A DNA stretch of 64,000 bases from an uncultured virus (IMG/VR IMGVR_UViG_3300023202_000249) (IMGVR_UViG_3300023202_000249); one strand, 5' to 3'. Counted from the stretch's first letter, positions 14,655-61,462 are shown. Notes: generated by a model from the letters alone, not told the origin. Translations and numbers: made by a program.

Positions 14655-14657
14655 CCT

Positions 14658-14716: not shown

Positions 14717-14735
14717 GTTCTTTGGAGGACACGGA

Positions 14736-35128: not shown

Positions 35129-35166
35129 CGTCCAATCAATCTCAATCCCAATGAAAGCATCTTCCT

Positions 35167-36880: not shown

Positions 36881-36958
36881 TGGTAGCGGGAACAGGATTC
36901 GAATCTGCAACCTCTGGGTTTAGCAGCCCAGCGCGCTGCCATATTGCGCCACCCCGCG
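36881..36958 (-). tRNA. Initiator-like tRNA body with an 8-nt anticodon loop CUGCUAAA (atypical or pseudo-tRNA)
   Basis: CGCGGGG/UCCCGCU acceptor with C1:U72 mismatch; GCGC D stem; CUGGG/CCCAG anticodon stem; UUCGAAU T loop closed by an A:C mismatch; encoded ACCA. Confidence 0.85.
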
Positions 36959-37792: not shown

Positions 37793-37902
37793 TCATTCAG
37801 ACAATCCGAAGCTTCTCCAGTTTTTCTTTCTAGACAGACATCCGGTCGTGCAGTAAAACATCGCAGGCTGTAGCTTAGACCTTTTCGCGAAATAGTCAAT
37901 AT

Positions 37903-38181
37903 ATGCCGACATCAAAAAGATCACATCCAGGACTGGAACTCTGCGCCCAATTGAAGGCACTCGAGATCAGCCAGTGCGCATTGGCGACAAACTGCAAGAT
38001 CAGCCAAAGTACCCTCACCGACATCTGCAAGGGGAGGCGCCGCATCACGGTCAACATGAGCGTGAAGATTGGCAAGTCCCTTAACCAGGCGCCCGACAAT
38101 TGGGCGCTTAAGCAACTCGCCTACGATGTCCGTCAGGCGGGACGCAAGTACAGGCACCTTAAGCCCATCGTGGAAGGATGA
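37903..38181 (+). CDS. HigA-like HTH regulator
   Basis: HPGLEL...SQCALA...ISQSTLTDICKGRRRIT...W..Q..YD. Confidence 0.85.
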   Translation: MPTSKRSHPGLELCAQLKALEISQCALATNCKISQSTLTDICKGRRRITVNMSVKIGKSLNQAPDNWALKQLAYDVRQAGRKYRHLKPIVEG

Positions 38182-40052
38182 CGACAACAATGGCCGAAGC
38201 CAAAACCATCTCGCTCCCGCAGCCGAAAACGCCCGACGACTCCGCTCAGGTCAAAGAGACACGAGAGGTCACTTACAAGCGGCCGGTTACACCGGGCGAC
38301 GCGAAGAAAGAGCCGGGCGCGACAAAAAACAACGTGGAGCGCATCGCATGGCTGAATGGACACTGCAACGACGTCGACAAGAGTAACTGGTACCTGACTG
38401 TTCGGCGCAAGTTGCCGACGATGTGGAAGAACAAAGTCCTAAACACGCGCAGCGATCTGATCAAGATCAATAGCCTATGCTCCTACCGAGAGGTATATGA
38501 AGAAATCGAAGATAAGCTTGGCGGCGGATCATACCGCATCATCGTTTTCAGCAGTCAAGGCGCCGAAGAGAGCTCGATCGATCTTTCGATCGACACCGAA
38601 GACGTGCCGCCCAATATTAAACACAAAAAAAACATCATCGTGGATGACGAGGATGCGCCCAGCAACGGCAGATATGGCTCGGCAGCAGCGCTTCCCTTCC
38701 CCGGTGGATCGAGGGAGCTCCTGGAACTGCGAGAGAAGAAAGAGAAGCTCAAGCATCAACGGGAGATCGACGAAGAGGAGGCTAAGTTCGAAGATGCTCA
38801 GCAACGTCGAGAGGAGGAGAAGCGGCGCCGAGAGAAGGAACGTAAAGAGGCCGAGGAGCGCGAACGCAAGGAAAGGGAGCGTTCTAGCATGCAGCCCATC
38901 GAGCAGCTTCGATACGAGATGAAGGACATGATGAATTCCTTCGCATCGATGATGAAAGATACGATGCAGGCGATGGCGAATAACCAACCCAAAGAGGACG
39001 GTACGAAGGAAATTTTGCTCACCCTCCTCAAGAAGGAGCAGGATTCCGCCGAAGAGTCAGCGAAGGCGGCTGCGGAAAAAGCCAAAGCCGAAGCGGAAGC
39101 CCGAAAGTACGAGGCCGACAAAAACGCCGAAGTCCGCCTCCAGGAGGCGAAGATTAAGGCGGATGCCGATGCCAAGATTTCCTCGGCGAAGGCAGAGGCA
39201 GACCGAGAGCGCGAAGCCGAGCGCAAGCAAACCAATGAGATGTTCCTGAAGATGGTCCAAGCCGGCGAGAAGAACTCGGATCGACTGATGAATGAATTCT
39301 TCACCAAGATGATGGACAAGCGCTTCGGCGATCCCATGGAAGACTTCATGAAGTTCCAGCAGTTCGTGGATACCGTGCGCGGTACCGGCGGCGACGAAGA
39401 AGGCGGCGGAGGCAGCAGCATGTGGACGACGCTGGGTCAGTCGCTCGCGCAAGGACTAGCCGGGCGCCTGCTCAATCCTCCTACCCAGCAACTGCCAGCC
39501 CTTGGCAATCCGCAGCAACAAGCACCACCGCAGCAATTGCCACCGCCTCAGCAGGTGCCTTCCTTGGATGTATCTATCCCTGGCCAACCAGCGCCGCCGC
39601 AAGCACCGCAGCAGAATCCGCAAGCGCCGCAGCCAAATGCGCAGCCACAAGCCCAATCCGCTCAGAGCCAACAGCAGGCGCCGCAGCAGAGCAATCAGAT
39701 CAACCTGCCGCAGCTGGCCCCGGACTCCGAACAACGCTTAAGGGCGTCGCTCACGGAGTTGATGGAGATGGCGGTCCAGGACGCCAAGGATGGTTTGGTT
39801 AATCCGCGGTGGACCGGTATCGCGGCCGGCGAGCTGAACAATAAGTTCATGGACGCGATGCAGGCGCTCGGAAAGGGTACCGACAGTCACTACAAGAGGC
39901 TCCAGTTGGTCAATCATTACTGTCGGCAGGACGTCATGAGTAGTCTCGTTGACATTCTGCGTAATCCGGAGAACGCGAAGACTGCATATGTGCCGTTCAT
40001 GAACGCTTGGGATGTGGCAATCGACATGCACAGGGATCGCACCAATGGCTGA
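38178..40052 (+). CDS. Large coiled-coil, Gln/Pro-rich protein
   Basis: 624-aa ORF with E/K/R heptad stretches and a QP-rich linker. Confidence 0.85.
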   Translation: MTTTMAEAKTISLPQPKTPDDSAQVKETREVTYKRPVTPGDAKKEPGATKNNVERIAWLNGHCNDVDKSNWYLTVRRKLPTMWKNKVLNTRSDLIKINSLCSYREVYEEIEDKLGGGSYRIIVFSSQGAEESSIDLSIDTEDVPPNIKHKKNIIVDDEDAPSNGRYGSAAALPFPGGSRELLELREKKEKLKHQREIDEEEAKFEDAQQRREEEKRRREKERKEAEERERKERERSSMQPIEQLRYEMKDMMNSFASMMKDTMQAMANNQPKEDGTKEILLTLLKKEQDSAEESAKAAAEKAKAEAEARKYEADKNAEVRLQEAKIKADADAKISSAKAEADREREAERKQTNEMFLKMVQAGEKNSDRLMNEFFTKMMDKRFGDPMEDFMKFQQFVDTVRGTGGDEEGGGGSSMWTTLGQSLAQGLAGRLLNPPTQQLPALGNPQQQAPPQQLPPPQQVPSLDVSIPGQPAPPQAPQQNPQAPQPNAQPQAQSAQSQQQAPQQSNQINLPQLAPDSEQRLRASLTELMEMAVQDAKDGLVNPRWTGIAAGELNNKFMDAMQALGKGTDSHYKRLQLVNHYCRQDVMSSLVDILRNPENAKTAYVPFMNAWDVAIDMHRDRTNG

Positions 40053-40881: not shown

Positions 40882-42300
40882 ATGCTGTTCACTGGACAGC
40901 TCAATCCGATTGCAGCCGGCCTCCCGAAGTCGCACCAGCGCAAGTCGATTCCTTCGGGCAACGCCGGCACCGCTCAAACGATCGCGGGCATGCAAATGCT
41001 TGTCGGCAAGGGCAAGCGCGATCAGCGCGTGCGGCAACTGGCCATCAGACTAGCCAGTCAATGCAAAAAGAAGGACTACGCCTGCTACGCGCAAAAATGC
41101 TACGAATTTTGCCGCGACAAAATTCAGTACGTCTACGATCCGGTCAATGTGGAATACGTCGAGCATCCGCGCAAGCTTCTGGAAGCGGGCGGCGGGGACT
41201 GCGACAGCGTCTGCGTGCTGCTGGCTTCGATGCTCGAAGGTATTGGACTGCCCTGCCGGTACATTACCATCAAAGCCGATCCAAGCAAACCCAACGAGTT
41301 CTCACACGTCTATCTTCAAGTCGGTCTGCCGCGCAAAGGTGGGGGGGTGCGCGATTGGAAGGGCATGGACGTTACGATGGAACCTCGCGTTCCTTTCGGC
41401 TGGGAACCGCCAAAGCGGTTTCCGCGCAAGGCGTGGCCTGCATCAACCGATCCGATGCAGGAAGAGGGGGATGCTAGCGTAATGGGATTAGCCGAAGGCC
41501 CCATTCCAGGCGTCGTTGACCTTGACCGTAACGTCCAAGGTCCATCCGCCGATTACCGCCAGATCGATTATGCCGGTGGGCAGCCCAGCGGCCAGACGCC
41601 GGGCATGGGCGACCTCGCACTGGTAGACGACACGTCGATCGGCATACCCGATCAAGGTACGATTTCCACCATCTACAGCGTCGCCGATGGCTCCATGTAC
41701 GGCGACCTTGTAGAGGCGCAGCGCAACTACGAAAAGATGCGCAAAGAACTGGCACAACGCCGCATCGACATCGCAAAAATGCCGAAAGGCCCCAAACGCG
41801 TCGAAGCTGAAGGGCTTTGGCAGCAGGCCAACGACTCGCTCCAACAGATGCTTCGCAAGCTGAACGAAGCATTGGAGAAATACAATTCCGTGGCGCAGGC
41901 TGTAAACATCGCCACGGCAAGCACCGTCAATCCGCAGCGGTTTCGCAATCTGCCATATACGGGACTGGGCGCCATACAGGCGTTGCCCGTGGCCGCCATT
42001 ATCGCCGCAGCCGGACTTGCCGCGCTGGGGCTTTCGGCACTGGTCGATTCATTGCGCGGCAACTCGGCATCCTCGCGCGGATACCTGGACCAGCTTGCCA
42101 ATGTGATTCGCTCCAGCGGCGTAGCCATCGATAAATCAACGGATTTTGTGCGCACGGCGATGTGGGCGGCTCTTGCAGCCGGAGCTGCCTACATCGCATA
42201 TGACGTCTTCAAAGGCCCGCGTCGTCGCGCCACCGCGCTCGCGCGCAGCCAGCCCAAGACTTCCGCGATCAAAACAGCCAAAGGAAGGGTTCTCGCGTGA
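40882..42300 (+). CDS. Transglutaminase-like cysteine protease with a C-terminal membrane region
   Basis: GDCDS (Cys), FSHVY (His) and MDVT (Asp) triad; two C-terminal hydrophobic helices. Confidence 0.85.
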   Translation: MLFTGQLNPIAAGLPKSHQRKSIPSGNAGTAQTIAGMQMLVGKGKRDQRVRQLAIRLASQCKKKDYACYAQKCYEFCRDKIQYVYDPVNVEYVEHPRKLLEAGGGDCDSVCVLLASMLEGIGLPCRYITIKADPSKPNEFSHVYLQVGLPRKGGGVRDWKGMDVTMEPRVPFGWEPPKRFPRKAWPASTDPMQEEGDASVMGLAEGPIPGVVDLDRNVQGPSADYRQIDYAGGQPSGQTPGMGDLALVDDTSIGIPDQGTISTIYSVADGSMYGDLVEAQRNYEKMRKELAQRRIDIAKMPKGPKRVEAEGLWQQANDSLQQMLRKLNEALEKYNSVAQAVNIATASTVNPQRFRNLPYTGLGAIQALPVAAIIAAAGLAALGLSALVDSLRGNSASSRGYLDQLANVIRSSGVAIDKSTDFVRTAMWAALAAGAAYIAYDVFKGPRRRATALARSQPKTSAIKTAKGRVLA

Positions 42301-42893
42301 TGCACGAATACGAGGCCACTCCAGAAAGCCTTGTCGGACCGCGGCTCTTGCCGCAACGAAATCCGCTTTGTACATGCCCTATCCACGGGCATGCAATGAA
42401 TGGGGGATACCGTACTGTGCGCAATCCCGAACTCATGATCGTCCACAACCCTTACGGAAGAAAGGGGAAACCCATGGCACGAAAGAAACGGCGAACCACG
42501 CGCGGCAGACGCCGCAGCACCTATAAGCTTCGGGCGAAAATCGGGAAGAAGCACTACACCCATCCCGAATTCATTAAGCGCAAGGTTGCCGCCTACAAAC
42601 GGCGTCACAAGCGCACGCGGGGGAAAGCCGCGTTGCGCTGGGCGCGAAACCAGTGGAAGCGGTCCGTTAAGATACTCGGTAAGGGTAAAAAAGGTCGCCC
42701 ACACTGCTACCCCTCGCGCCGCACGAAGCGTATCCGTTACGCCAATCCGCGCCGGCGCCGCCGGACGCGTCGATCCAGTTGGCAGAGCCTGGTCAAGAAA
42801 CACGGCGTTCAAAAAGCCGCGCGAATCTATCGCGGACGCAAGCAAGGCGGCCGGAAGGGGGGGCGCCGGCGAAGGCGTTCGTTTCGCTACTAA
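42297..42893 (+). CDS. Arg/Lys-rich NP-motif protein, putative genome-condensing protein
   Basis: Poly-Arg blocks; RNP, HNP and ANP motifs. Confidence 0.75.
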   Translation: MMHEYEATPESLVGPRLLPQRNPLCTCPIHGHAMNGGYRTVRNPELMIVHNPYGRKGKPMARKKRRTTRGRRRSTYKLRAKIGKKHYTHPEFIKRKVAAYKRRHKRTRGKAALRWARNQWKRSVKILGKGKKGRPHCYPSRRTKRIRYANPRRRRRTRRSSWQSLVKKHGVQKAARIYRGRKQGGRKGGRRRRRSFRY

Positions 42894-43557
42894 AGAGTCC
42901 GCGAAAGAGCGCTACGGCAAGCTCATCCGCGAAGCAGCAGCGCTAAGGCAAGAGTTCATTGGGTACAACAGGCATCATGACGAAGATGACGATCCACCGC
43001 CGGAATACGACGAAGACTTGGAAGACTCCATGCCAGAGCCTTACAAGCAAGCTTTGTCGAATTATGCGGCGACTAAAGAAGGGCGTAAAGCGCTCGCTCG
43101 TTATCGCAAGTTTTGGGGCGTCCCGTACCCGGTCGAACTCGATGATTACGAAATCCCAGGACCAAACAAAACCGTACGCATGGTCGGTCTTGGGACTACG
43201 CCGCACGCGTACATCTCCGGCAAGCCGCAAGGCAAAGGCGGTCGCGCCCGGAGGATTAAAGGACCGTTCCTTGTCGTGGCTGATGCCAACGGTAAGCAGG
43301 TCATGCTGCTGCGCAAACGTAAGAGCAAACAAAGAAGAGGCAACCGCCGGAAAAAGAAGTTCCTTGGGTGGGTGCCTCAAACGGATTACGTGCCGAGCGC
43401 CGCGCTCGAAAAGGCAGGAACTTTTAAGCGCGGAAAATACTGGGTCCATAAGCACGACGATGAAGGCGGTACATGGCCCAAGGCTTGGCAGGACCAACAA
43501 GGCAACATCATTTACGGGCCGTCTACGCTTCGCGTAGATAAGTGGATGCGGAGATAG
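42894..43557 (+). CDS. Hypothetical basic virion-module protein (start unclear; first ATG at 43030)
   Basis: Open frame 42586-43557; protein-like after 42894. Confidence 0.7.
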
Positions 43558-43559
43558 GA

Positions 43560-44318
43560 ATGGCAACTCGGATCATGGTCGCAAATCCAGGCGGAAAACC
43601 AATTCGAAGGGGTAGTAAAATGAAACGACGCAAGCGAAGACGAAGGAAGAACCCGCTTTACCGCAACCGCAAGCGCAAGCGTCTAACACGACGCAAGTCG
43701 CGCCGCATGCCCGGGCGCAAGCGCAAGCGTCTAACACGACGCAAGTCGCGCCGCTACAACTACCGTCCGCGTCGGCGCAACTACCGCGGCGCTTCGCTGG
43801 CGCAGAATCCCGTCGCGGCGCTGACCAAAGGCTTCAAGCTCAAGAATATCGGAGATGCGGTCCCGATCGTCGGCGGCGTCATCGGAAATGGATTCCTCGC
43901 ATCCAATGTTTCCAACTTCCTGCCGAGTCAACTGCAGACGCAGCCGGTGCGGTGGGGCATCGGTCTCGCCACAGCAGGCGTGACTGGCTTACTGGTCGGT
44001 TTCCTCCCGGGCATGAAGAAGTACCAGACCAATGTCACGCTCGGCGGTCTGGCCTATGTCCTTAGCGACGTGGCCAACGCCTACCTGGCCGGTCCGCTGC
44101 AGCAGGCGCTGACCGGACTGGGTTGTCCTGGATGCATGGGCGACTACGTGACGAGCAATCAGGCCGCTCGGGCACGCCAGATTGACAACAATCTCCAAGG
44201 TATGGGCGGTATGGGAGACTACGTGACGAGCAATCAGGCCGCTCAGGCACGCCCGATTGATAACACCCTTCAAGGCATGGCAAGCTTTGACGGGATAAAC
44301 GATATGCCGGAAACCTAA
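43560..44318 (+). CDS. Arg-rich NP-motif membrane protein with MGDY repeats
   Basis: Basic N-terminus, three hydrophobic segments, duplicated MGDYVTSNQAA. Confidence 0.85.
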   Translation: MATRIMVANPGGKPIRRGSKMKRRKRRRRKNPLYRNRKRKRLTRRKSRRMPGRKRKRLTRRKSRRYNYRPRRRNYRGASLAQNPVAALTKGFKLKNIGDAVPIVGGVIGNGFLASNVSNFLPSQLQTQPVRWGIGLATAGVTGLLVGFLPGMKKYQTNVTLGGLAYVLSDVANAYLAGPLQQALTGLGCPGCMGDYVTSNQAARARQIDNNLQGMGGMGDYVTSNQAAQARPIDNTLQGMASFDGINDMPET

Positions 44319-44355: not shown

Positions 44356-45027
44356 ATGGCCAGGAAAAGACGCAAAACGCGCCGGCGCCGCCGGCGAAAC
44401 AAAGGTTGGGGCTACGCGAGCAATCCGCGTCGTCAACGTCGACGCACGCGGCGTAAATCTCGGAGTCGTAATCCGCGCCGGCGCCGCCGGAGCTACCGCT
44501 ACAACCCCAAGATCACCAAGGCGCTCACCAGCGGATTCGATCTGAGCAAGATCGGCGATGCGGGCATCTTGGTCGGTGGCGTGGCCGCCAACGCGTTCCT
44601 CACCAATCAACTCGCGGGCATGACATTCATGCCGCAGTTCCTCCGCGCCGGTGTTGGCCGGTACGTGGTCGGACTGGTAGGCGCGGGCGCGATCGGTGGC
44701 GCGGCGCGATATGTACCGGGGGTCAAGAAGTACAGCGACCTCCTGTTCACCGGCGCGCTGGCCCAGGTCGTCTCCACCGCGGTTGATCAGTTCTTCCCGC
44801 GCGTGGCGCAGATGACCGGGCTCGATAACGTGGGCGACTACGCGACCGAGACCACGATTGCACAGGCCCGCTCGATCGACAGCGGCGCCCTCAACGGAAC
44901 GGATGGCATGGGCGACTTCGCCACCGTTCCAAAGGTCATGGCCGCACCGGCCAACTCCGTGGACAACGCGATGCTGCAAGGCCTGGGCATGAGCGAGTTC
45001 ACCGGCGGCGGCGGCGACGCTTGGTAA
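44356..45027 (+). CDS. Paralog of 43560-44318
   Basis: NP..ALT.GF.L..IGDA and the GDY/GDF repeats are shared. Confidence 0.85.
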   Translation: MARKRRKTRRRRRRNKGWGYASNPRRQRRRTRRKSRSRNPRRRRRSYRYNPKITKALTSGFDLSKIGDAGILVGGVAANAFLTNQLAGMTFMPQFLRAGVGRYVVGLVGAGAIGGAARYVPGVKKYSDLLFTGALAQVVSTAVDQFFPRVAQMTGLDNVGDYATETTIAQARSIDSGALNGTDGMGDFATVPKVMAAPANSVDNAMLQGLGMSEFTGGGGDAW

Positions 45028-45138
45028 TCAGTTGTTTTGACAGCGCTCTAGCATAGGGCCGGAGCGCATTTGTTAACCCTTAAATGAGTGACACCGAGTG
45101 ACACCTATTTAGGGCGCTCTAAGAAAAGGAGAAGCGTT

Positions 45139-45801
45139 ATGCCTGGACAGGCACAGTTCGAAGAAGAGGTTGGTGGTCAGGTATTCGCCAAGGGCTACCC
45201 CCTCAGCACCATCATGTACCAGGGCAAAAAGGTTGTCCTGCGTCCACTCAAGCAGCCGTTGTACGATACCGAATCGTACCCGAACAGCTCCGTTACCTCG
45301 CGCAAATGGTTCAGCCGCGCGCAGGGTAGCGCCGATGCCTCGGGGGGGATCTCGAGCAAGTCGAAAAGTGAGACAAATCTCACCCAGACGGGACAGCTTT
45401 CCGCGCCAGACACATTTTCCCTCTTTGGCTTCAATGTTGTCATCGAGTACGGTACCACGCTGGCGGACATGCGCCTGATCTTAAATACCGGCGCGTTCGT
45501 CTTCACCTTCACGGGATCTCGGGTCTATCTGGAGATCCCGGTCAACCGGATTCCTGCGGGCATCAAGCCCGAAGGTCCGTTGGCCGCCGATGGCGCGACG
45601 AGCGCGGTGGTATACACCGAAGTACAAAACGGAAGCGGCCACATGTCGAACGTTTATCCGTTCAACATTCGCGACCGTACGCTGTGGATTCAGCCGAACG
45701 AAAACTTCGGCGTCGAAATCACCTATCCGTCCGGCATCACCGTTTCGGCGGCGACGCGCGTTCAGGTTTTCTTAATCGGGATGTTGTACAAGGCCGTCTA
45801 A
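45139..45801 (+). CDS. Putative major capsid protein, single jelly-roll type
   Basis: 220-aa beta-rich protein (QPLYDT, TNLTQTGQL, IQPNENFGVEI, VQVFLIG); strong AAGGAG RBS; flanked by hairpins. The fold is inferred. Confidence 0.6.
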   Translation: MPGQAQFEEEVGGQVFAKGYPLSTIMYQGKKVVLRPLKQPLYDTESYPNSSVTSRKWFSRAQGSADASGGISSKSKSETNLTQTGQLSAPDTFSLFGFNVVIEYGTTLADMRLILNTGAFVFTFTGSRVYLEIPVNRIPAGIKPEGPLAADGATSAVVYTEVQNGSGHMSNVYPFNIRDRTLWIQPNENFGVEITYPSGITVSAATRVQVFLIGMLYKAV

Positions 45802-45820
45802 ACAAGGCGTCTAGACGCGA

Positions 45821-45860
45821 AATGGGATGGGTGTTTATCGCACCCATCCCATTCTTAAAT
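45821..45860 (+). terminator. Strong hairpin after the putative major capsid gene
   Basis: aatgggatgggtg-tttatcg-cacccatcccatt, 13-bp stem. Confidence 0.7.
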
Positions 45861-45899
45861 AACCCGGCTTCGGGGAACCAAACCCGTCAGGAGTCCACC

Positions 45900-46865
45900 G
45901 TGGGAATTTTCAAGAACTACGTCAAAGACCAGCAGGGCAACGTCTATCTCAACCAGTTGCTTCGATACGCTAAGGGAACAATTCTTGTTCCCGCGGATGC
46001 CCGCCAGCCGATTGTCACGTCCACCAATTCAACCAGCGCTCCGGTCATCATCGAAGGACCACAGGATGGCGTTGCGGAACTGTTTGCTTTGTACGGTCAG
46101 CACGGAGGCAGCGATAACAGCGCGGTCACCAACCGGCTTGAGGTGCAAATTACGGATATCATGTGGCGCCGCCGCATGATGAATCGGCACATCCTCGCCG
46201 ATCATATCTTTGGCAATAACCTTCAACAGTTTGAGTTGTTGGAGACCATACTCATGCAAGGCCAGCAAGCGCTTGCATTCGAGTTCCAGAACAACAGCGG
46301 CGTGGGGAGTTCGAATTTCAACTTCGGCGCACGCGCATACAAGATTCAGAACGCGGATCTGTCGCATCGCTACGCAGAGATGCGGTACAACCAGATTCGA
46401 GAGCGGAAAGTCCATCTCTATCCTTACTGGATGACCACCGACAACGCAGTGACGGTAGCCGCCAGTTCGACAGTCAAGGCATTTCTCTCGAATACGACCG
46501 ACATCGAGGTCGCGTTCTTCCAATTGATGGGGCGCGGGCTTAGCACTGGTGCTGCCGGCGATACAACGGAAATGTTCACGGTCAAGATCATCGATCCACA
46601 GACCGAAGATCCGCTACAGTCCGAACCGATCAGCCTCAATAACGGATTCGGCACAGCGAACTTTCCGTATCCGTTGCCGGCACCGATTTTGATGCCGCCC
46701 AATACGCAACTCGAATTGGAAATTACGAACCTGATAACTGACCAGAGCACCGAGGTCTACCTCACTTTCGCCGGCGTGGCCAACTACCTTGGCCTTTCGC
46801 TTGATCGCGTAATGAACAAGGGTCGGGTAACGAAGGCGCCGTTTTTGGTGCAGGGAGCTAACTGA
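45900..46865 (+). CDS. Tandem two-domain beta protein 1 (double jelly-roll-like)
   Basis: GTG start with AGGAG; two related halves; GTANFPYPLPAP...VYLTFAG. Confidence 0.7.
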   Translation: MGIFKNYVKDQQGNVYLNQLLRYAKGTILVPADARQPIVTSTNSTSAPVIIEGPQDGVAELFALYGQHGGSDNSAVTNRLEVQITDIMWRRRMMNRHILADHIFGNNLQQFELLETILMQGQQALAFEFQNNSGVGSSNFNFGARAYKIQNADLSHRYAEMRYNQIRERKVHLYPYWMTTDNAVTVAASSTVKAFLSNTTDIEVAFFQLMGRGLSTGAAGDTTEMFTVKIIDPQTEDPLQSEPISLNNGFGTANFPYPLPAPILMPPNTQLELEITNLITDQSTEVYLTFAGVANYLGLSLDRVMNKGRVTKAPFLVQGAN

Positions 46866-47905
46866 TGCCGACTCGAGGCGACGTCAACAAGATATTCAAG
46901 CCAAGCCCGAACGGCTTTGAGATGCAGACTTGGCGGCGATCCATCAAGCCGTACTGGTTGTATTTTGATGGTCAGGATGGCGCACTGACCTTTTCTGCCG
47001 GCGCGGCCAACAACACGCAACGCCCAAAGTACCGGCAGCAGTCATCTTCGAATAATTGGTTGGATGCATCTCTGCGTACGCCGTTCCTAATCCAGCAGAT
47101 TGTGCATACCGAAAGCGAAAATGGCACGGCCAATAGCAACTTTACGATCCAGATCCGGCAACGCGCGGCCGCTCGAGACCTGATGAGCAGGCCGATCCAT
47201 ATCAGGACTTTTGCCGGTACCGCACAGACGCCAGCACTGTTGCGGGAGCCGTTGCTTTTCCCGTCGAACAGCTTTTTGGATTGCACAATCACGCGCATCG
47301 AGAACACCAATCTGCGCAATCTACGCATGTACCTGTGCGGATCGTTCTACACGCCATGGGCAAACGACCTCACAATAAATCCGGACTGGAAGGCGCGCAT
47401 CGTCGATATCGTCAAGCGATGGGAGGTTCGCAATAGATATGTAATTCCGTACTGGATTACGCCCGACACCGATGTGGAACTAACCGCCGATACTGCGTCC
47501 GAGTTCTTCTTCAAAAACAGCGACGACTCCTGCATCGAGATCTTCGGCGCGACCGCGGTCTCCGACGGCGCCTTCTCCATGGAGATATCCGAAACGCGCA
47601 CGCGTACGTTGCTCCAGAATGGCGTGGTTACCAACACCAACGCGATCGGTAACGCCAACTTTCCGGCGATCTGGCCGACGACGTACCTTCTGTATCCCGG
47701 ATACCGATTGCGATTCAAACTAACCGACCTTTCCAGCAGCGGAAATACCGTCTACTTGACGCTATTTGGGCGCAAGATCTACGCCAAGCCCGACAAGGTA
47801 CTCCAGGTCTTGAAAGACACGGAAGTCGGGACGCCGCAGTCGCCCTCGGATCAGCAGCGCGTCTTCGAAAAGCTTGACTTCCAGTCGCCCGTAGGGAGAA
47901 CGTAA
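46865..47905 (+). CDS. Tandem two-domain beta protein 2
   Basis: PYW...GTAQTPALLREP and PYW...GNANFPAIWP...NTVYLTLFG. Confidence 0.7.
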   Translation: MPTRGDVNKIFKPSPNGFEMQTWRRSIKPYWLYFDGQDGALTFSAGAANNTQRPKYRQQSSSNNWLDASLRTPFLIQQIVHTESENGTANSNFTIQIRQRAAARDLMSRPIHIRTFAGTAQTPALLREPLLFPSNSFLDCTITRIENTNLRNLRMYLCGSFYTPWANDLTINPDWKARIVDIVKRWEVRNRYVIPYWITPDTDVELTADTASEFFFKNSDDSCIEIFGATAVSDGAFSMEISETRTRTLLQNGVVTNTNAIGNANFPAIWPTTYLLYPGYRLRFKLTDLSSSGNTVYLTLFGRKIYAKPDKVLQVLKDTEVGTPQSPSDQQRVFEKLDFQSPVGRT

Positions 47906-48816
47906 TGCGAAATATACTGCATGGGCCACGTCCTACGATAAATCGATTCGCTACGCTGCGCGAACCGCCGGAGCGAGACGGGCGCGTATTGGCGGTGGCC
48001 TCCCAGAAATCGCATGAGCGACCGTTCTTTTTGACCGGGGATCAGCCCGATACGTCGCTGAGCGTATCTGCGGATCTATCCGCTCAGTTCACGATGACCA
48101 ACAGCGGCGACGGTCCAATCGAGATTACTCGTCTGGCCGCGCACCGTACGGGCGCGATGACGGTGCTTCTCTCGCTGGGTAGCGGACGGCAGCCCTTCTC
48201 GCTGATGAATGCGCCGGTCCACATCGATACCATGATGGGCAGCGGCGCCAACCCGTACATCCTGCCCGAGGCACTCTACCTGCATGCCGGCCACAGCCTC
48301 TCAGCGGCGTTCCAGGACGTCTCAGGTAGCGCGAACAACGTCCGGCTGGCTTTCCCTTCAGCCAAATACACCTCGGTCATCTACGATCCACGGCTCGAGG
48401 AGGTAAAGCGGCGATTCCAGGACAAAGAGCGCATGTCGATGCCGTTCTGGTATACATTCAACCAGGGCGCTGTCACGCTTAGTGGAGATGCAAGCAGCCA
48501 AGTACCGATCGACATCAACGGTGGGCATCACTTTCTGCTCACGCATATCAGCGGCACGAGTACGGGCCGGTATTCGCTGAATATTTTGGATGCGTACCGA
48601 AACTTCTCGGTGATCGATGCGCCAGAAGGCACGACGTACCGCATTCCGGATAACCTGATTGTCGGAGACAACAACTATCCCTTCAGGTTTGAGCAGGGCA
48701 TTTTCTTTGAGGAGGGCAGCCGGCTCATTGTGGACATGCTCGATACGAGCGGGAGCAGCAACACCATTTACCTAACCCTCGGCGGGATTGTTCTGGCCGA
48801 CAAAATGTGGAAATAA
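47905..48816 (+). CDS. Tandem two-domain beta protein 3
   Basis: PFF...GSGANPYILPE and PFW...GDNNYPFRF...NTIYLTLGG. Confidence 0.7.
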   Translation: MRNILHGPRPTINRFATLREPPERDGRVLAVASQKSHERPFFLTGDQPDTSLSVSADLSAQFTMTNSGDGPIEITRLAAHRTGAMTVLLSLGSGRQPFSLMNAPVHIDTMMGSGANPYILPEALYLHAGHSLSAAFQDVSGSANNVRLAFPSAKYTSVIYDPRLEEVKRRFQDKERMSMPFWYTFNQGAVTLSGDASSQVPIDINGGHHFLLTHISGTSTGRYSLNILDAYRNFSVIDAPEGTTYRIPDNLIVGDNNYPFRFEQGIFFEEGSRLIVDMLDTSGSSNTIYLTLGGIVLADKMWK

Positions 48817-48819: not shown

Positions 48820-49431
48820 ATGGGTAGAAAAGGCATGGGCGACTTCACGAGCCCGCTTTACAATAAAACCAACAGGCCGCAAGGTCACGCGCCTGCCGGA
48901 CGCGTTGTCCAGCCCACGATACCCGTCGATCCGTCCGATGACTTCACTGAGATGCAGCGGATGCGGGAACTGATATCCCTGCTATGGCAAGAGAAGCATA
49001 TCCAGTTCCTTAAGGAGCGACCGCGCGAAGCGGCAACGTTCATCTCGGGCGGGGATGAGGTATCAGTCTCTTCGTCCAGCACGAGCACGGCGACGACCTT
49101 CACGGTCCCAAACAACTACGCCGGCCAGATTGAACACATTCAATTGATGGTCTTTGCGCCAAGCTTCTATCCCGACATCACGTGGCGTCTAAAGCTCGGT
49201 GGCGCGCTGTACCGGCCGTTTGGCGGCGACGGCGGACTCGTTGTTTCCGAAGGTCTTAACGCCTTTGATTTCTCATTAGAGTTGGTCAGCGGGCAGACCG
49301 TGACCATCGAAGCAGCCAATGGCAACGCCAGTGTCTCGGTGACGGTCGCGGCGCAGGTCAGAGGATGGTATGAGCAACTCACCGAGTGGAAAAGAGAAGA
49401 GTTTGGGCGTACGCCGAAGGGAACCATTTAA
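48820..49431 (+). CDS. Beta-rich virion protein (vertex/penton candidate)
   Basis: MGRKGMGDF start; FTVP...GQTVTIEA...VRGW. Confidence 0.6.
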   Translation: MGRKGMGDFTSPLYNKTNRPQGHAPAGRVVQPTIPVDPSDDFTEMQRMRELISLLWQEKHIQFLKERPREAATFISGGDEVSVSSSSTSTATTFTVPNNYAGQIEHIQLMVFAPSFYPDITWRLKLGGALYRPFGGDGGLVVSEGLNAFDFSLELVSGQTVTIEAANGNASVSVTVAAQVRGWYEQLTEWKREEFGRTPKGTI

Positions 49432-49748
49432 TGGCTGCCAACGATCCACAGCAGAAGTATGTACAAGGCGTTACTGGAGGCGCAAGTATCACCTTCACGC
49501 GTGCGGTTTACGAGATCACCGTGACGGCGGGGAACTTCTCAAGCTCAGACGCGGTGGCGTACATCGAACTCAACGGAACGCCGGCGGCAGCGGCAGCAGC
49601 CGATGACCGCTACAGTTTGCGTGACGGAGAATCGCGTAATATCACAGGCAAGATTACGTCGGTAGGCGTGCGAATGACCGCTGGAACCTGTGACTTGGAG
49701 GTCACAGGGTACGAGACGAAACAAGCCGATGTCGGGAAGGCTGGATAA
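49431..49748 (+). CDS. small beta-rich virion protein
   Basis: TAATG coupling; 105 aa. Confidence 0.7.
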   Translation: MAANDPQQKYVQGVTGGASITFTRAVYEITVTAGNFSSSDAVAYIELNGTPAAAAAADDRYSLRDGESRNITGKITSVGVRMTAGTCDLEVTGYETKQADVGKAG

Positions 49749-51117: not shown

Positions 51118-51250
51118 CCTTACAGGAGGCGAAGACGCCCGCAAGGCAAAAGCATTCCAAGCCTTCGCCGTAGTAGGGCTAGGCCTTGCGGCACTCTGGA
51201 TGGTTCTTTACCTCGGAGAGAAAGCCGCGAAGAGAAAGAGTGTACTATGA
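51104..51250 (+). CDS. small single-TM protein
   Basis: GAGGAG RBS; AFAVVGLGLAALWMVLYLG. Confidence 0.6.
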   Translation: MLLHDLTGGEDARKAKAFQAFAVVGLGLAALWMVLYLGEKAAKRKSVL

Positions 51251-52506
51251 ATAAAGATCTAATCAAAGCTGGTGCGGTGCTTGGAGGCCTTTGGGCCTTG
51301 GGCGCTTATATCCATCATAAAGGTCGGAAACGCATTCAAGATGAAGCCGCGCTCGAAGGACTCGGCGTCGTTCTACCTGGCTCTGGCGCTTCCGATCCCG
51401 GCGGCGTGAAGCAAAGCAGCGAGCCGTCTTCGACGGCAACCATTGTTTTGGATCGCCCAGGCATGCAGGCCGTGGGCGGAACCATTCTCGGCGGCGGCGC
51501 AGGACGCAATCCGCTGAAAAGCGTGAAAGAGGTGTTTATCCCTCAGCCTCGTCCACAACGACAACCTCAGCAGACGCGGCAGGGACCACAAACGCGAAAC
51601 CTGCTTCCACAACGACATCAGACGCAGCAGGGACAACCAGATCGAAGCCTGCTGCCGCAAGGAGTAGGAAACCCCCTTTGCAAGCTTGGTCGCAGCGGAT
51701 GCAACCATGGCACCACACGGGTTCCTGGTCCAAGCCGCGGCCGCGGGACTCCAATTGGAGTCCAACGCCGAATCGTATCGCCCGAGTCGCAACGAGAGCG
51801 AGCAGTATATGCGGGATTCCCCAAGAATAAGAAGAGCACGAAACCAGTTCATCCAGATTGTCGCTGGCAAGATCGCTACGGCGCCGAATGCCGCAGGCGT
51901 GGTGGTCATGCCAGAATGACCCTTATGGGCTGCCCAGAGGACTATCCATGCTGTAATACGGCCAGGTGCAATGTAGACATGGATGACTGGGTGCGTGCCA
52001 ATCCGGACCCCAGCGGCCGCATTGATCCGGACAAGGTGAGGCCTACGCCAAAGCAGGTGAGGCCTGCGCCAAAGCAGAAATCCGTGATCAAAAAAGAGGA
52101 GTGTCTCAGTCAAGGCGGAAAATGGAATCCGCTGGTTGGATGCCTGATGACACAGGCCAAACCTGAACCCAAACCTGAACCCAAACCTGAACCCAAACCT
52201 GAACCCAAACCTGAACCCAAACCTGAACCCAAACCTGAACCCAAACCTGAACCCGATATCGCATCGGTCGCTCCCGATGCGCCCTCGACACCGACGACGC
52301 CGGGTTCATCTTTTGAATTTGTGCCGTTCCAGCCCGATCATCCTATGGACGCCCCGGAGCCAGTCCGATCACAGGAGATGGTTGATTCCAGCAACGGTGT
52401 GACCGTTGAAGGCAATGGCGATACGCCGTCTCCCCAGAAACAGTCGTCCTCTGGAAAATGGATAACCGGTGGACTTGTCGCTTTAATGATGCTGAAAGGC
52501 CTGTAA
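51247..52506 (+). CDS. Pro/Gln-rich membrane protein with a 12-bp (KPEP)x8 repeat at 52158-52254
   Basis: N- and C-terminal hydrophobic segments; LEGLG motif. Confidence 0.8.
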
Positions 52507-54386
52507 TGTTTGGTGCGCTCGAAAAACTTGGAGCAGGTAGCGCTCAAGACCAGTTTGGGCGAGAGGGCGAGGTGTCAGCGGAGCAAGCGCGGAAACGCCC
52601 TGCGTGGGAAGGACGACTGGACTTTGGTCCGCCAGCGCCGCGCCGAGATCCCGGCTACGACTTCAGCTCGGGTCAGACTTTTGTCGGCCCGGAGCCTGAG
52701 TGGCAAACTACCGAAGGCGGTGGACCACAGCAGCAGCAGTTGCCAAGTCCATCACCTGGCCCCAAGCCGGTGGACCACTTTGACCCTCAAGGCGGCCGAT
52801 TCCAATCGCACGTTACATATGCGCCGCCTGCGAATGTGGACGTTGGGCAGCCCGTAGGGTTCGACTTCTTTCGACGTCCGCAACGTGCGACGTCGCAGAC
52901 TGGTGTACATCAAAGGCGTCAGCAGGAACTTGCCATAGCGGAGCGCCATCGCATCCAGTCTATTTGGGATGTACGCCCCGGAGAAAGTCTTTCCGAATGG
53001 ATGCGGCGCCATAATATCATTGCATACGATGCATCGGTTACCGGCGAAGCGCGCATGCAATTTAATCGCGCCAAGAAGGCGGCCAAATCGATCCGTCCTT
53101 CCCTACCCGAGCAGACGCCCATCGAGAAAGAGCGTGCGCGACTTCAAACCAAGCGCAGCGTCGAAAGAGGGCTTGAGCCACCTCCAGGATCAAGTTTCGC
53201 TACCGATCCGCAGCCCGCACCGCAGCAGGAGCCTGCACCGCAGCAGGAGCCCATACAGGAATCCGAAGATCTCAAGGAGACTGTCCGCGCGACAGAAGAA
53301 CTTCTTGGCCGTGAACTCGCATTGGCCGAGAAAATCCCCGTAGGCGTGATTGACGCCAATGTACGGGTCGGAGCTAAGCAGGCACCGAAGAAGACTCAGA
53401 CACGCATTGCTGCCCGGGTGGCCGAAGCATACGTCCGAACCCTAGACAAGACCGAATCCAGAGAAGCGGCGCATGCGGCGGCCAAGCGCGAGATGGGTCA
53501 GGCTAACATTGCCACAAGAGCACTAAGCGCCGCAGAAAGTACGGTACAGAGCCTGTTCGATGCGATGGGTGTCGATATCACCGTAGGGCGATTTCGAAAG
53601 GAAAAGAAAAGCCCAATAAGTGTTTTCACCGACCCCTTGAATATTCCCACGCCTACGGACGAAGAGCCGGATCAGGCTGCGTCGGACAGGATGGAATGGG
53701 AGGTGCAGTGGGACAAGAAGGGCATAGGCGTTTTCAGCAACCCGCTTGGCATTAATAAGCCTCCTGCCATCGACACCGCATCGATTGAGTCCGAAAACAG
53801 GGCGCCCGCGATAGAGGCGGCATCGATCACGCCTGATAATGTGCCCCCTAAAATTCTTTCGGCTTCGATCGAGCCCGATGAGGAACCCGAGGTCGCGGCG
53901 ATCAATCTGTTCAGCAACCCGCTCGTGATCAATATTCCCGTCGAGCCGGTGGATATCACGGCGGATGTGACGCAGCCCGAGCCGAGCGAAGATGAATTCG
54001 GGCAGTTGCTCCCGCCGCCCCAAGACATCGTCTCGCTCGACACGGCCGAAGATGGTCCGGATGAGTTTGGCACGTTACTCCCGCCACCTCGAGAAGCCGC
54101 GATAGAGCGAGATGATGAACAAGTTAAACAGGAGCGGATTGCCGAGGAAAAACGCCAAGAGCGCATTCGGCAACAGAGGCAAATGGAGCGCGAAATACGC
54201 TCGTCGGAAAATAAGATTGCGCAACTTGAGCATGTCATTCGGATGTCCACCATCGGGCCGGTGGCCGGCAGTGACCTGGAGGCTGATCAACGCGTGCGGG
54301 AAGCGCAACGCCAAATCAAGAGTTTAAAGGTTCAAGTGGCCAATCTTCGGGATAGAATCCCAAGTACAACGGTCGCGCAGAGGTAA
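52506..54386 (+). CDS. Large low-complexity virion-module protein
   Basis: MFGALEKLG start; internal FSNPL repeats; C-terminal coiled coil. Confidence 0.8.
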   Translation: MFGALEKLGAGSAQDQFGREGEVSAEQARKRPAWEGRLDFGPPAPRRDPGYDFSSGQTFVGPEPEWQTTEGGGPQQQQLPSPSPGPKPVDHFDPQGGRFQSHVTYAPPANVDVGQPVGFDFFRRPQRATSQTGVHQRRQQELAIAERHRIQSIWDVRPGESLSEWMRRHNIIAYDASVTGEARMQFNRAKKAAKSIRPSLPEQTPIEKERARLQTKRSVERGLEPPPGSSFATDPQPAPQQEPAPQQEPIQESEDLKETVRATEELLGRELALAEKIPVGVIDANVRVGAKQAPKKTQTRIAARVAEAYVRTLDKTESREAAHAAAKREMGQANIATRALSAAESTVQSLFDAMGVDITVGRFRKEKKSPISVFTDPLNIPTPTDEEPDQAASDRMEWEVQWDKKGIGVFSNPLGINKPPAIDTASIESENRAPAIEAASITPDNVPPKILSASIEPDEEPEVAAINLFSNPLVINIPVEPVDITADVTQPEPSEDEFGQLLPPPQDIVSLDTAEDGPDEFGTLLPPPREAAIERDDEQVKQERIAEEKRQERIRQQRQMEREIRSSENKIAQLEHVIRMSTIGPVAGSDLEADQRVREAQRQIKSLKVQVANLRDRIPSTTVAQR

Positions 54387-58357: not shown

Positions 58358-58365
58358 GGTCTACC

Positions 58366-61452: not shown

Positions 61453-61462
61453 GGAGCACAAG

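What the first reader, a model, noticed from the sequence alone, without database searches (positions are those of the whole stretch)
45139..48816. Capsid module with one single-domain and three tandem-duplicated jelly-roll-like proteins
Seen: three consecutive genes each contain two copies of a ~150-aa beta-rich unit, approximately P[YF][WF]...G.a..P..lp......p...L.......s...n.vyl...G. That gives six homologous units in total. They follow a 220-aa single beta-domain gene that has a strong RBS and a 13-bp downstream hairpin, the pattern expected for the most abundant capsid protein. No HK97 capsid, portal or terminase is visible. Established: tailless viruses use either single or double vertical jelly-roll capsid proteins. 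Inference: a single-jelly-roll major protein plus a heterotrimeric pseudo-hexamer of double-jelly-roll proteins, which would be an intermediate architecture in an unusually large (>64 kb) tailless genome.
Basis: partly seen in the sequence, partly recalled or inferred. Interest (0 to 1): 0.75.

Follow-up and report, generated by a model that had tools for sequence, protein, structure and literature searches.

The report
Capsid genes of a tailless phage
These four genes look like the shell proteins of a large, little-known group of tailless phages: one single jelly-roll protein and three related double jelly-roll proteins that are predicted to fit together into one six-lobed building block.

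Summary
Genes 45900-46865 (A), 46865-47905 (B) and 47905-48816 (C) are paralogs. Each carries an internal duplication detectable by sequence (profile-profile probability 98% for each N half against its C half). They follow a 220-aa beta protein, which is followed by a 14-bp hairpin.

The fold model of B matches double jelly-roll (DJR) capsid proteins across both domains (STIV MCP Z 11.7, PRD1 P3 9.6, PM2 P2 8.2). The 220-aa protein is weakly single-jelly-roll-like.

A+B+C is predicted to form a head-to-tail ring (ipSAE 0.89, best control 0.54). A/B and B/C overlap stop and start codons.

The module keeps this order in five larger related contigs. A complete 59.8-kb relative has the same pair with a single DJR gene.

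I found no terminase, portal, HK97 capsid or FtsK/A32-type ATPase in the window, in that complete genome, or in a 77-kb relative. Three protamine-like basic proteins sit just upstream in every relative.

The closest characterised virus is Salisaeta phage SSIP-1 (T=49, internal membrane). It shares a transglutaminase-like virion protein and the arrangement of SJR-like gene, hairpin, DJR-like gene.

Still unresolved: whether the three form a heterotrimer or three homotrimers, and whether the small protein is the penton or a second major protein.

The parts
38178..40052 (+). 624-aa coiled-coil, low-complexity protein at the head of the conserved virion module. It may be a scaffold-like protein; this is a guess.
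   Evidence: No Pfam or PHROG hit. Sequence seen. Homologues at the same place in L002, L004 and C68.
40882..42300 (+). Transglutaminase-like (papain-fold) protein with a hydrophobic C-terminal part, homologous to SSIP-1 virion protein gp34.
   Evidence: Pfam PF01841, E 1.2e-9. BLASTP to SSIP-1 gp34: 28% identity over 141 aa, E 1e-16. Conserved in L001/G002, L002, L004 and C68.
42297..42893 (+). 198-aa protamine-like protein, 34% Arg+Lys overall.
   Evidence: Analogous very basic ORFs lie at the same place in L002, L004, C68 and G002.
43542..44318 (+). Protein with an Arg-rich N terminus (66% R+K in the best 50 aa) followed by a hydrophobic Gly/Ala-rich part.
   Evidence: Homologues in L002, L003, L004 and C68.
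44356..45027 (+). Paralog of the previous protein: Arg-rich N terminus (58% R+K in the best 50 aa) plus a hydrophobic part.
   Evidence: jackhmmer also reaches G002 13999-15099.
45126..45131 (+). Shine-Dalgarno AAGGAG, 7 nt before the ATG at 45139.
   Evidence: Read directly.
45139..45801 (+). 220-aa single jelly-roll-like capsid protein. It is either the penton base or a second major capsid protein.
   Evidence: AF2 pLDDT 57, pTM 0.58. VIA: SPV1 6oj0_T Z 7.1 (120 aa, rmsd 3.3), P23-77 VP16 Z 6.4, HHIV-2 Z 6.2. Foldseek BFVD top hit I1ZBH9, E 4.6e-4. Orthologues lie next to the DJR genes in 6 of 6 contigs that cover the place.
45821..45853 (+). 14-bp GC-rich hairpin directly after the SJR gene, read as a leaky terminator or mRNA 3' stabiliser.
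   Evidence: Hairpins at the same place, with unrelated sequences, in L002, L003, L004 and C68, 3 of these 4 followed by a U-rich run, and after SSIP-1 gp46. None in G002.
45900..46865 (+). DJR paralog A, 321 aa, GTG start with AGGAG at 45889-45893.
46865..47905 (+). DJR paralog B, 346 aa. Its start overlaps the stop of A (TGATG).
   Evidence: AF2 pLDDT 75, pTM 0.76. VIA: STIV MCP Z 11.7 (231 aa, rmsd 4.0), PRD1 P3 Z 9.6 (237 aa, rmsd 5.0). Junction.
47905..48816 (+). DJR paralog C, 303 aa. Its start overlaps the stop of B (TAATG).
48820..49431 (+). 203-aa conserved beta-sandwich protein that always follows C. It is a candidate second small capsid or vertex protein.
   Evidence: Orthologues after C in L002, L004, L007, L008 and C68. 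The Atlas model (pTM 0.57) resembles jelly-roll/GOLD/GH172 domains only at TM 0.43-0.60, so this is a lead only.
49386..49748 (+). 120-aa conserved small protein that follows the previous gene.
   Evidence: Homologues in L002, L004, L008 and C68.

Best explanation
The four genes are the shell module of a tailless icosahedral dsDNA phage, probably one with an internal membrane. It belongs to a large uncultured lineage whose only characterised relative is Salisaeta phage SSIP-1.

Shown by sequence and models:
- A, B and C are double jelly-roll proteins. They arose from one DJR gene by two gene duplications, after an older internal duplication that is still visible in sequence.

Inferred:
- They are made in equal amounts through stop/start-coupled translation.
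- They assemble head-to-tail (N barrel of one against C barrel of the next) into a pseudo-hexagonal A-B-C trimer, which is the capsomer.
- The 220-aa single jelly-roll protein upstream is produced in excess, because a leaky terminator or stabilising hairpin follows it. It supplies the pentons, or a second abundant shell component, or both.
- The genome (60-77 kb in this group) is condensed by the three protamine-like proteins encoded just upstream, not pumped in by a terminase or an FtsK-type ATPase.
For: - Paralogy and internal duplication.
- DJR fold of B across both domains: STIV MCP Z 11.7 (231 aa, rmsd 4.0), PRD1 P3 Z 9.6, PM2 P2 Z 8.2, FLiP Z 8.2, PBCV-1 Z 7.7.
- SJR-like fold of the small protein: SPV1 Z 7.1, P23-77 VP16 Z 6.4, HHIV-2 Z 6.2. 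The nearest named Atlas clusters are PM2 P2 and PRD1 P3 at 0.76-0.77, which is a lead only.
- Complex A+B+C: ipSAE 0.89 (runs 0.89, 0.89, 0.91) against a best control of 0.54. Partner pLDDT is 78 or more and the runs agree in at least 67% of contacts. In the calibration this mark was reached by 116 of 157 solved complexes and 2 of 215 mismatched pairs. C's N half touches B's C half, and C's C half touches A's N half.
- Stop/start overlaps with SD sequences at A/B and B/C.
- Order SJR-A-B-C kept in 5 of 5 related contigs that span it: L002, L003, L004, its near-duplicate L006, and C68. Four short contigs (L005, L007, L008, L009) carry parts in the same order.
- A, B and C form three separate, populated clades among 150 family representatives. 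The family has 1286 clusters at E<=1e-3.
- The complete relative G002 (59,782 nt, terminal repeat) has SJR plus one DJR.
- No head or packaging family: window 46 ORFs on Pfam and 58 on PHROGs; G002 65 on Pfam and 60 on PHROGs; C68 62 on Pfam.
- Hairpin after the SJR gene in 5 of 5 distinct triple-DJR genomes and in SSIP-1.
- Basic proteins upstream in every relative.
- SSIP-1 link: gp34 E 1e-16. gp47 is the top SSIP-1 hit of all 5 DJR profiles tried; with 2 of the 3 profiles tested against decoys (family and C) it scores 14.5 and 13.2 bits, against best decoys of 4.6 and 4.3 among 861. Foldseek best-TM hits I1ZBI0 and I1ZBH9 have the lengths of gp47 and gp46.
Against: - No virion data exist for this lineage. 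The whole case is models and context.
- The same two-barrel fold also matches cellular proteins nearly as well: GH172 arabinofuranosidase Z 10.6, DUF2961 Z 10.3, PHM Z 9.8, PNGase F Z 9.0. Foldseek against the PDB ranks PHM first.
- The SJR model has low confidence (pLDDT 57) and all its matches are under Z 8, a range the tool calls common.
- The complex test cannot separate a heterotrimer from homotrimers of paralogs. With B replaced, the score was still 0.54.
- If the SJR protein were only the penton (60 copies), a terminator that lowers DJR expression would be the wrong way round.
- A virus of 60-77 kb with no packaging ATPase has no precedent that I know of. A divergent enzyme may have been missed: the ATPase search used HMMs and a Walker-A pattern only. 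About 13 kb of the window's own 76,917-nt contig was not seen.
- With the third profile tested against decoys (B), gp47 scored 9.5 bits, below the best decoy at 11.4. hhalign to gp47 reaches only 49% probability.
- SJR and gp46 show no sequence similarity.
Confidence: 0.6

Rival explanations
1. Same capsid role, but A, B and C each form homotrimers that occupy different places in a large lattice (for example peripentonal, edge and facet), as capsid-protein paralogs are thought to do in some giant viruses.
For: - Paralogs of a true partner often pass the complex test; the tool's own note gives 10 of 12 colicin cousins.
- The single-DJR relative G002 shows that one protein can do the job as a homotrimer.
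- Conservation of all three as separate clades fits this reading as well as the heterotrimer.
Against: - One-base stop/start overlaps at both junctions suggest equimolar synthesis, whereas lattice classes would rarely need 1:1:1.
- The heterotrimer model is confident at both of C's interfaces.
- No homotrimer was modelled, because only one complex job is allowed.
Confidence: 0.2
2. The 220-aa single jelly-roll protein is the only major shell protein, as VP4 is in portoglobovirus SPV1. The DJR-like paralogs would then form a vertex, turret or spike complex, or be glycan-binding or glycan-cleaving virion proteins related to GH172/PNGase F-type cellular DJR proteins.
For: - A hairpin after the SJR gene marks it as the most expressed gene of the block in 5 of 5 distinct triple-DJR genomes and in SSIP-1.
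- The best SJR match is SPV1, followed by P23-77 VP16 and HHIV-2, all vertical-SJR shells.
- Cellular DJR enzymes match B at Z 9.0-10.6.
- STIV's turret protein also matches one domain: 4ind Z 8.3.
Against: - The top match covering both domains is a capsid protein, STIV MCP at Z 11.7.
- No Pfam GH172, PNGase or other enzyme family matches: B at E<=0.01, A and C at E<=0.1.
- The predicted closed ring with alternating N and C barrels is the capsomer geometry.
- The DJR family is as conserved and as widespread as the SJR partner.
Confidence: 0.12
3. The element is a tailed phage whose HK97 capsid, portal and terminase are too divergent for HMMs. The jelly-roll proteins would then be decoration, baseplate or fibre parts.
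For: - Most ORFs of the late region have no family.
- A fibre with an S74 chaperone domain is present at 61409-63463.
- Jelly-roll domains occur in tail proteins; Agrobacterium phage 7-7-1 tail fibres match one domain of B at Z 8.0.
Against: - There are zero head or packaging hits in three genomes, one of them complete, although replication genes are recognised easily.
- No Walker-A protein exists in G002 at all.
- The genes conserved between distant relatives are the SJR/DJR pair, the transglutaminase-like protein and the basic proteins. None of the larger late ORFs (for example 52458-54386 or 58354-59778) is conserved, although portal and terminase would be expected to be.
- The cultured relative SSIP-1 is described as tailless in a review.
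Confidence: 0.05

Closest known systems
[quoted passage not shown]
   Same: - A transglutaminase-like virion protein: gp34 against 40882-42300, 28% identity, E 1e-16.
- An adjacent small beta protein and a larger two-barrel-like protein, both annotated as structural: gp46 (211 aa) and gp47 (256 aa).
- A strong hairpin between those two genes.
- gp47 is the best SSIP-1 hit of all 5 DJR profiles tried.
- The best-TM viral Foldseek hits of my two models, I1ZBI0 and I1ZBH9, have exactly the lengths of gp47 and gp46 and consecutive accessions. That they are those proteins is my inference.
- No terminase-like gene.
- Reviews say it has PRD1-type architecture and two MCP types (passages read).
   Different: - SSIP-1 has two small paralogs (gp45 and gp46, E 1e-12) and one larger protein. 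This lineage has one small protein and one or three larger ones.
- SSIP-1 has an AAA_25 protein annotated as structural (gp40). No such gene lies in the virion module here.
- The genomes here are 60-77 kb.
- Sequence similarity of the capsid candidates is marginal.
- The primary paper (Aalto et al. 2012, PMC3344969) is not held, so I could not see which SSIP-1 proteins are its MCPs.
[quoted passage not shown]
   Same: Two jelly rolls side by side in one chain (Z 11.7, 9.6, 8.2, 8.2). A predicted trimer with alternating barrels. A small jelly-roll gene next to it.
   Different: - No sequence match to any Pfam DJR family or to any solved chain.
- The two barrels are still recognisably similar in sequence. 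I recall no such similarity reported for classical DJR MCPs; this is recalled, not tested here.
- The gene is triplicated.
- No FtsK-HerA ATPase was found. The 2022 PNAS paper notes that FLiP and the Odin group also lack one (passages).
Vertical single jelly-roll capsids (Helvetiavirae: P23-77 VP16/VP17, HHIV-2, HCIV-1; Portogloboviridae: SPV1)
   Same: The 220-aa protein's best structural matches are these (Z 7.1-5.9). A small-then-large capsid gene order. SPV1 also lacks a packaging ATPase (passage).
   Different: The larger partner here is a side-by-side double barrel. It is not a single barrel with a tower: P23-77 VP17 matches one domain only (Z 8.5, 114 aa). No ATPase gene precedes the pair.
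Cellular DJR proteins (DUF2961/GH172, PNGase F, PHM)
   Same: Same fold and relative barrel orientation (Z 10.6, 10.3, 9.0-9.3, 9.8). DUF2961 also forms pseudo-hexagonal trimers (passage).
   Different: No family hit by sequence. The genes sit in the core of a virus morphogenesis block, next to an SJR partner.

Membership tests
[quoted passage not shown] | Two eight-stranded jelly rolls side by side in one polypeptide | tested here: met
   AF2 model of B (pLDDT 75, pTM 0.76) aligns over both domains to STIV MCP (Z 11.7, 231 aa, rmsd 4.0), PRD1 P3 (Z 9.6, 237 aa) and PM2 P2 (Z 8.2, 213 aa). Cellular DJR proteins score 9.0-10.6 in the same list.
[quoted passage not shown] | Trimer with pseudo-hexagonal outline, N and C barrels alternating | tested here: met
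   In silico only. A+B+C ipSAE 0.89 against a best control of 0.54, partner pLDDT >=78, contacts agree >=67%. The contacts are C(N)-B(C) and C(C)-A(N). Homotrimers were not modelled.
[quoted passage not shown] | Barrel axes vertical to the capsid surface; the protein is the main shell component | not testable with these tools
   Needs a virion structure or virion proteomics.
[quoted passage not shown] | Sequence membership in a described DJR family (Pfam P3_N/P3_C, P2_N/P2_C and others) or similarity to a solved DJR MCP | tested here: not met
   No Pfam family for A, B or C, nor for 20 distant family members. No PDB chain at E<1 with profile A1.
[quoted passage not shown] | FtsK-HerA (A32/P9-type) packaging ATPase in the genome | tested here: not met
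   No such Pfam or PHROG hit, and no plausible Walker A, in the window's late region or in complete G002. C68 has only an AAA (PF00004) protein and a thymidylate kinase. Some DJR groups are known to lack the ATPase (passage).
SSIP-1-like phages | Homologue of the transglutaminase-like virion protein gp34 | tested here: met
   BLASTP 28% identity over 141 aa, E 1e-16. Both carry PF01841.
SSIP-1-like phages | Homologue of structural protein gp47 | tested here: inconclusive
   gp47 is the top hit among 41 SSIP-1 proteins for 5 of 5 DJR profiles, best E 2.4e-5 at 14.5 bits. It is above all 861 decoys for 2 of the 3 profiles tested against them. hhalign gives 49% probability over 159 columns.
SSIP-1-like phages | Homologue of structural protein gp46/gp45 | tested here: inconclusive
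   No sequence signal. The only support is a Foldseek top hit to a 211-aa BFVD entry, E 4.6e-4, TM 0.42-0.44, from a low-confidence model.
Helvetiavirae (two vertical single jelly-roll MCPs) | Two single-barrel MCPs encoded after an FtsK-type ATPase gene | tested here: not met
   The larger proteins are double barrels. No ATPase gene precedes the pair.
Caudoviricetes | HK97-fold capsid protein, portal and large terminase | tested here: not met
   Tested by HMM only. No hit in the window (46 ORFs on Pfam, 58 on PHROGs), in G002 (65 and 60 ORFs) or in C68 (62 ORFs on Pfam). The folds of the unassigned ORFs were not predicted.
GH172/DUF2961 cellular DJR enzymes | Match to the GH172 family models | tested here: not met
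   No Pfam hit for B at E<=0.01 or for A and C at E<=0.1. The fold similarity is Z 10.3-10.6.

The most novel reading that the evidence does not exclude
This lineage preserves a young or independent origin of the double jelly-roll capsid protein. The single-barrel unit was duplicated and fused recently enough that both halves still align by sequence. The fused gene was then triplicated to give an obligate A-B-C heterotrimeric capsomer. A separate single jelly-roll protein remains a major shell component, as in SSIP-1. These shells would enclose 60-77 kb of dsDNA with no packaging motor, around DNA condensed by protamine-like, membrane-anchored proteins. That would be the largest tailless prokaryotic virions known and a live test case for how DJR capsids arise.
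Probability: 0.2. Interest if true: 0.9.

Novelty: new variant of a known kind. Interest (0 to 1): 0.72.

Why it matters
How double jelly-roll capsid proteins arose is an open debate. One view is fusion of two viral single-barrel proteins; the other is capture of a cellular DUF2961-like protein (Krupovic et al. 2022, passages read).

This family bears on that debate for three reasons:
- Its two barrels are still alike in sequence.
- It exists both as a single gene and as three conserved paralogs.
- It sits beside a single-barrel partner.

The family is large: 1286 clusters at 50% identity. It is absent from Pfam and PHROGs, so these phages currently go unclassified or are labelled as tailed phages by default. 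The Atlas rows read 'Uroviricota'.

The family also gives SSIP-1, an orphan isolate, a set of relatives. It points to a way of packaging a large dsDNA genome without a recognisable motor.

Tried and rejected
- Own genome: no whole genome is held for the window. The nearest held record, G001, lies inside the window, so about 13 kb of the 76,917-nt contig stayed unseen.
- blastn of the four genes against GenBank phages: no match.
- Profile searches against PDB sequences with A1 and A4: nothing below E 1.
- hhalign of the SJR profile against the DJR profile and against each half: no relation detectable.
The narrower A3 and A4 worked. As a result, the metagenome and genome scans reached close relatives only.
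- RNA evidence: no RNA holder is listed. There are 4 DNA runs from one study, 3 of them possible sources of the window. Read laying was not used, because contigs cannot show expression levels.
- Walker-A pattern scans gave only implausible hits in frames that are probably non-coding.
- The window's AAA_25 protein (32875-34086) sits with the primase, matches primase/helicase PHROGs, and has a degenerate P-loop. I therefore rejected it as the packaging enzyme.
- Literature: five full-text searches found no paper on triplicated DJR genes or large SSIP-1-like phages. The terms were: 'double jelly-roll' with 'three major capsid proteins' and 'tailless'; with 'paralogous', 'heterotrimer' and 'capsomer'; with 'Varidnaviria', 'MCP paralogs' and 'arginine-rich'; with 'Acidobacteri' and 'prophage'; and 'SSIP-1'. 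Yutin et al. 2018 contains no 'paralog' or 'duplicat' (term search only).
- Aalto et al. 2012 is not held.
- The tree is FastTree, midpoint-rooted, and built from the 150 best hits of a B-centred profile, so clade sizes are biased and no root is claimed.
- I rejected the 45822 ATG as the start of A, because it lies inside the hairpin stem and orthologues align from 45900.

Full report
**What is there.** The region holds four co-oriented genes.
- The first (45139-45801, 220 aa) has AAGGAG 7 nt before its ATG.
- It is followed by a 14-bp GC-rich hairpin at 45821-45853. The MFE of 45800-45900 is -39.3 kcal/mol, z -4.47, and 0 of 200 shuffles fold as well.
- Gene A starts at GTG 45900, with AGGAG 6 nt upstream. 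The earlier ATG at 45822 lies inside the hairpin stem, and orthologues align from the residue that corresponds to 45900.
- A/B and B/C share one base between stop and start (TGATG, TAATG), each with GGGAG upstream.

**The repeat claim.**
- BLASTP shows A, B and C are paralogs (E 9e-14, 7.5e-13, 1.9e-7) and gives cross-half hits (E 4.6e-6 and 2.5e-10).
- I built orthologue alignments of each paralog (A5, A6, A7; 23, 25 and 20 rows) and cut them into halves. With these, the N and C halves of each protein match at 98.0-98.6% hhalign probability.
- All 15 of 15 pairings of the six halves reach 95.8% or more.
- N-N and C-C pairs score best (down to E 6e-33). The internal duplication therefore came before the gene triplication.
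P[YF][WF] is present in 5 of 6 units.
- The 220-aa protein's profile matches none of the six halves.

**Fold.** None of the four proteins hits Pfam or PHROGs or any PDB sequence.
- B, modelled with 10 sequences, gives pLDDT 75 and pTM 0.76.
- An all-against-representatives structural search puts STIV MCP first (Z 11.7, 231 aligned, rmsd 4.0). PRD1 P3 follows at 9.6, PM2 P2 at 8.2, FLiP at 8.2, phiCjT23 at 7.8 and PBCV-1 at 7.7.
- Cellular double jelly-roll proteins are interleaved: a GH172 enzyme at 10.6, DUF2961 at 10.3, PHM at 9.8 and PNGase F at 9.0-9.3.
- Foldseek against the PDB ranks PHM first.
- This is exactly the set of families that Krupovic et al. 2022 describe as sharing the DJR fold (passages). 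So the fold is a side-by-side double jelly roll, but fold alone does not separate capsid from cellular relatives.
- The 220-aa protein models poorly (pLDDT 57, pTM 0.58).
- Its best matches are vertical single jelly-roll shell proteins: SPV1 Z 7.1, P23-77 VP16 Z 6.4, HHIV-2 Z 6.2, HCIV-1 Z 5.9. All are under Z 8, so the match is only suggestive.

**Context.** The window is virus-like.
- It has a replication block (helicase, primase, DnaB-like protein, clamp-like protein, methylases, nucleases) and a late block with almost no known families. The exceptions are a transglutaminase-like protein and a fibre with an S74 chaperone domain.
- Its own contig is 76,917 nt.
- The DJR family is large: 1286 representative clusters at E<=1e-3, 508 at 1e-10 and 171 at 1e-30.
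- In a tree of the 150 best representatives plus reference genes, A, B and C form three separate, populated clades (FastTree, midpoint-rooted, biased towards B).

*Synteny.* Five related contigs span the whole place: L002 (from a 65-kb contig), L003, L004, its near-duplicate L006, and C68 (a 77,182-nt contig binned with an Acidipila MAG). All five keep the order: coiled-coil protein, transglutaminase-like protein, basic proteins, SJR, A, B, C, then the 203-aa protein. Four short contigs carry parts in the same order.

*A single-DJR relative.* A more distant, complete genome (G002, 59,782 nt with a 144-bp terminal repeat, CheckV 100%) has the SJR homologue (35% identity) followed by a single DJR gene. 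It also has the transglutaminase-like and basic proteins.

**Missing hallmarks.**
- No terminase, portal or HK97 capsid family appears among 46 (Pfam) and 58 (PHROGs) window ORFs, 65 and 60 G002 ORFs, or 62 C68 ORFs.
- No FtsK/A32-type ATPase appears either.
- G002 has no credible Walker A protein at all.
- The window's late region has none.
- C68 has only an AAA (PF00004) protein and a thymidylate kinase.
- These are HMM and motif searches. The folds of the unassigned ORFs were not predicted.
- In every relative, three proteins with protamine-like stretches (44-66% Arg+Lys over 50 residues) lie just upstream of the SJR gene. Two of them have hydrophobic tails.

**Assembly.**
- The one complex job (A, B and C with their alignments, 970 residues) gave ipSAE 0.89, 0.89 and 0.91. 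The controls gave 0.00 and 0.00 with the partner replaced, and 0.54 with B replaced.
- Partner pLDDT was 78 or more and contact agreement at least 67%.
- In the tool's calibration the mark was reached by 116 of 157 solved complexes and 2 of 215 mismatches. That calibration holds only roughly here.
- C's N half contacts B's C half, and C's C half contacts A's N half. This is the head-to-tail ring of a DJR capsomer.
- The test cannot tell a heterotrimer from homotrimers of paralogs.
- The coupled translation of A, B and C argues for equal amounts, and therefore for one mixed capsomer. This is an inference.

**Expression signal.**
- A strong hairpin sits directly after the SJR gene in the window and in L002, L003, L004 and C68, with unrelated sequences.
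- In L003, L004 and C68 the hairpin is followed by a U-rich run. G002 has none.
- This is the arrangement usually seen after a phage's most abundant structural gene.

**Closest known virus.**
- The viral Foldseek hit with the best TM score for B is I1ZBI0 (256 aa, TM 0.62 by target, E 2.6e-8). The top viral hit for the SJR model is I1ZBH9 (211 aa, E 4.6e-4).
- Their consecutive accessions and their lengths equal SSIP-1 gp47 and gp46. These are adjacent genes, both annotated as structural proteins. That the BFVD entries are those proteins is my inference.
- Independently, gp47 is the best of 41 SSIP-1 proteins for all five DJR profiles. With the family profile it scores 14.5 bits (E 2.4e-5), against a best decoy of 4.6 bits among 861. 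With profile A7 it scores 13.2 against 4.3. With A6 a decoy beat it.
- hhalign gives 49% probability over 159 columns.
- SSIP-1 virion protein gp34 is a clear homologue of the window's transglutaminase-like protein (E 1e-16).
- SSIP-1 also has a 13-bp hairpin between gp46 and gp47 (z -3.68).
- Reviews describe SSIP-1 as tailless and membrane-containing, T=49, about 100 nm, 44 kb, with two MCP types and an unresolved fold ('single jelly roll?') (passages). The primary paper is not held.

**Verdict.**
- The genes are best read as the shell module of an SSIP-1-like tailless phage lineage: a DJR gene triplicated into a probable heterotrimeric capsomer, and an abundant single jelly-roll partner.
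- No recognisable packaging motor was found, and a conserved set of DNA-condensing proteins is present.
- Two points remain open: heterotrimer versus homotrimers, and penton versus second major protein. All structural claims rest on predictions.

Noticed in passing
window 36881-36958 (-): A tRNA gene (Rfam RF00005, 46 bits) with an 8-nt anticodon loop (CUGCUAAA). ARAGORN reads this as a four-base anticodon, gcta. It could be a quadruplet or suppressor-type tRNA, or a Ser-like GCU tRNA with an extra base.
   Followed up: partly
window 42297-42893, 43542-44318, 44356-45027 (+); same place in L002, L004, C68, G002: Three proteins with protamine-like Arg/Lys runs lie directly upstream of the capsid genes in every relative. 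Two of them have hydrophobic Gly/Ala-rich tails and repeated GMGDY-type C-terminal motifs. I read them as membrane-anchored DNA-condensing proteins.
   Followed up: partly
window 42297-42893 vs 42586-43557 (+): Two long ORFs overlap in different frames. Only residues about 102-323 of the second are conserved in relatives, so its true start is probably near 42890, right after the stop of the basic ORF.
   Followed up: partly
window 32875-34086 (-): The AAA_25 / DnaB-like protein next to the primase has a degenerate P-loop (SDPKSKKT). SSIP-1 carries an AAA_25 protein (gp40) annotated as a virion structural protein.
   Followed up: partly
L013-L017 (G003:C68, 77,182 nt): A wholly virus-like contig with the same capsid module is binned in a MAG titled Acidipila sp. 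It also carries family A DNA polymerase, an SNF2 helicase, ThyX, thymidylate kinase and an integrase. This hints at Acidobacteriota as host, but binning is weak evidence. A 1193-aa late protein in it carries thioredoxin domains.
   Followed up: partly
L010-L012 (G002), 37357-37995 (-): The complete single-DJR relative encodes a tyrosine integrase, as do C68 and SSIP-1. The lineage may therefore be temperate.
   Followed up: no
window 51247-52506 (+): A 419-aa protein with an N-terminal hydrophobic segment and a run of PEPK repeats (about 11 copies). It matches no family and has no homologue in the relatives examined.
   Followed up: no
window 1-939 (-) and 3332-4975 (-): An ankyrin-repeat protein (open at the window edge) and a subtilase-like protein are encoded at the left end. 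Ankyrin repeats are unusual in phages.
   Followed up: no
window 61409-63463 (+): A fibre or spike protein with a C-terminal S74 intramolecular chaperone domain. Its N-terminal part is repeated three times in a 1547-aa protein of L002.
   Followed up: no
L018 (SSIP-1) 34635-35267 and 35324-35959: SSIP-1 gp45 and gp46 are paralogs (26% identity, E 1e-12). SSIP-1 has therefore duplicated the small protein, whereas the window's lineage triplicated the large one.
   Followed up: yes
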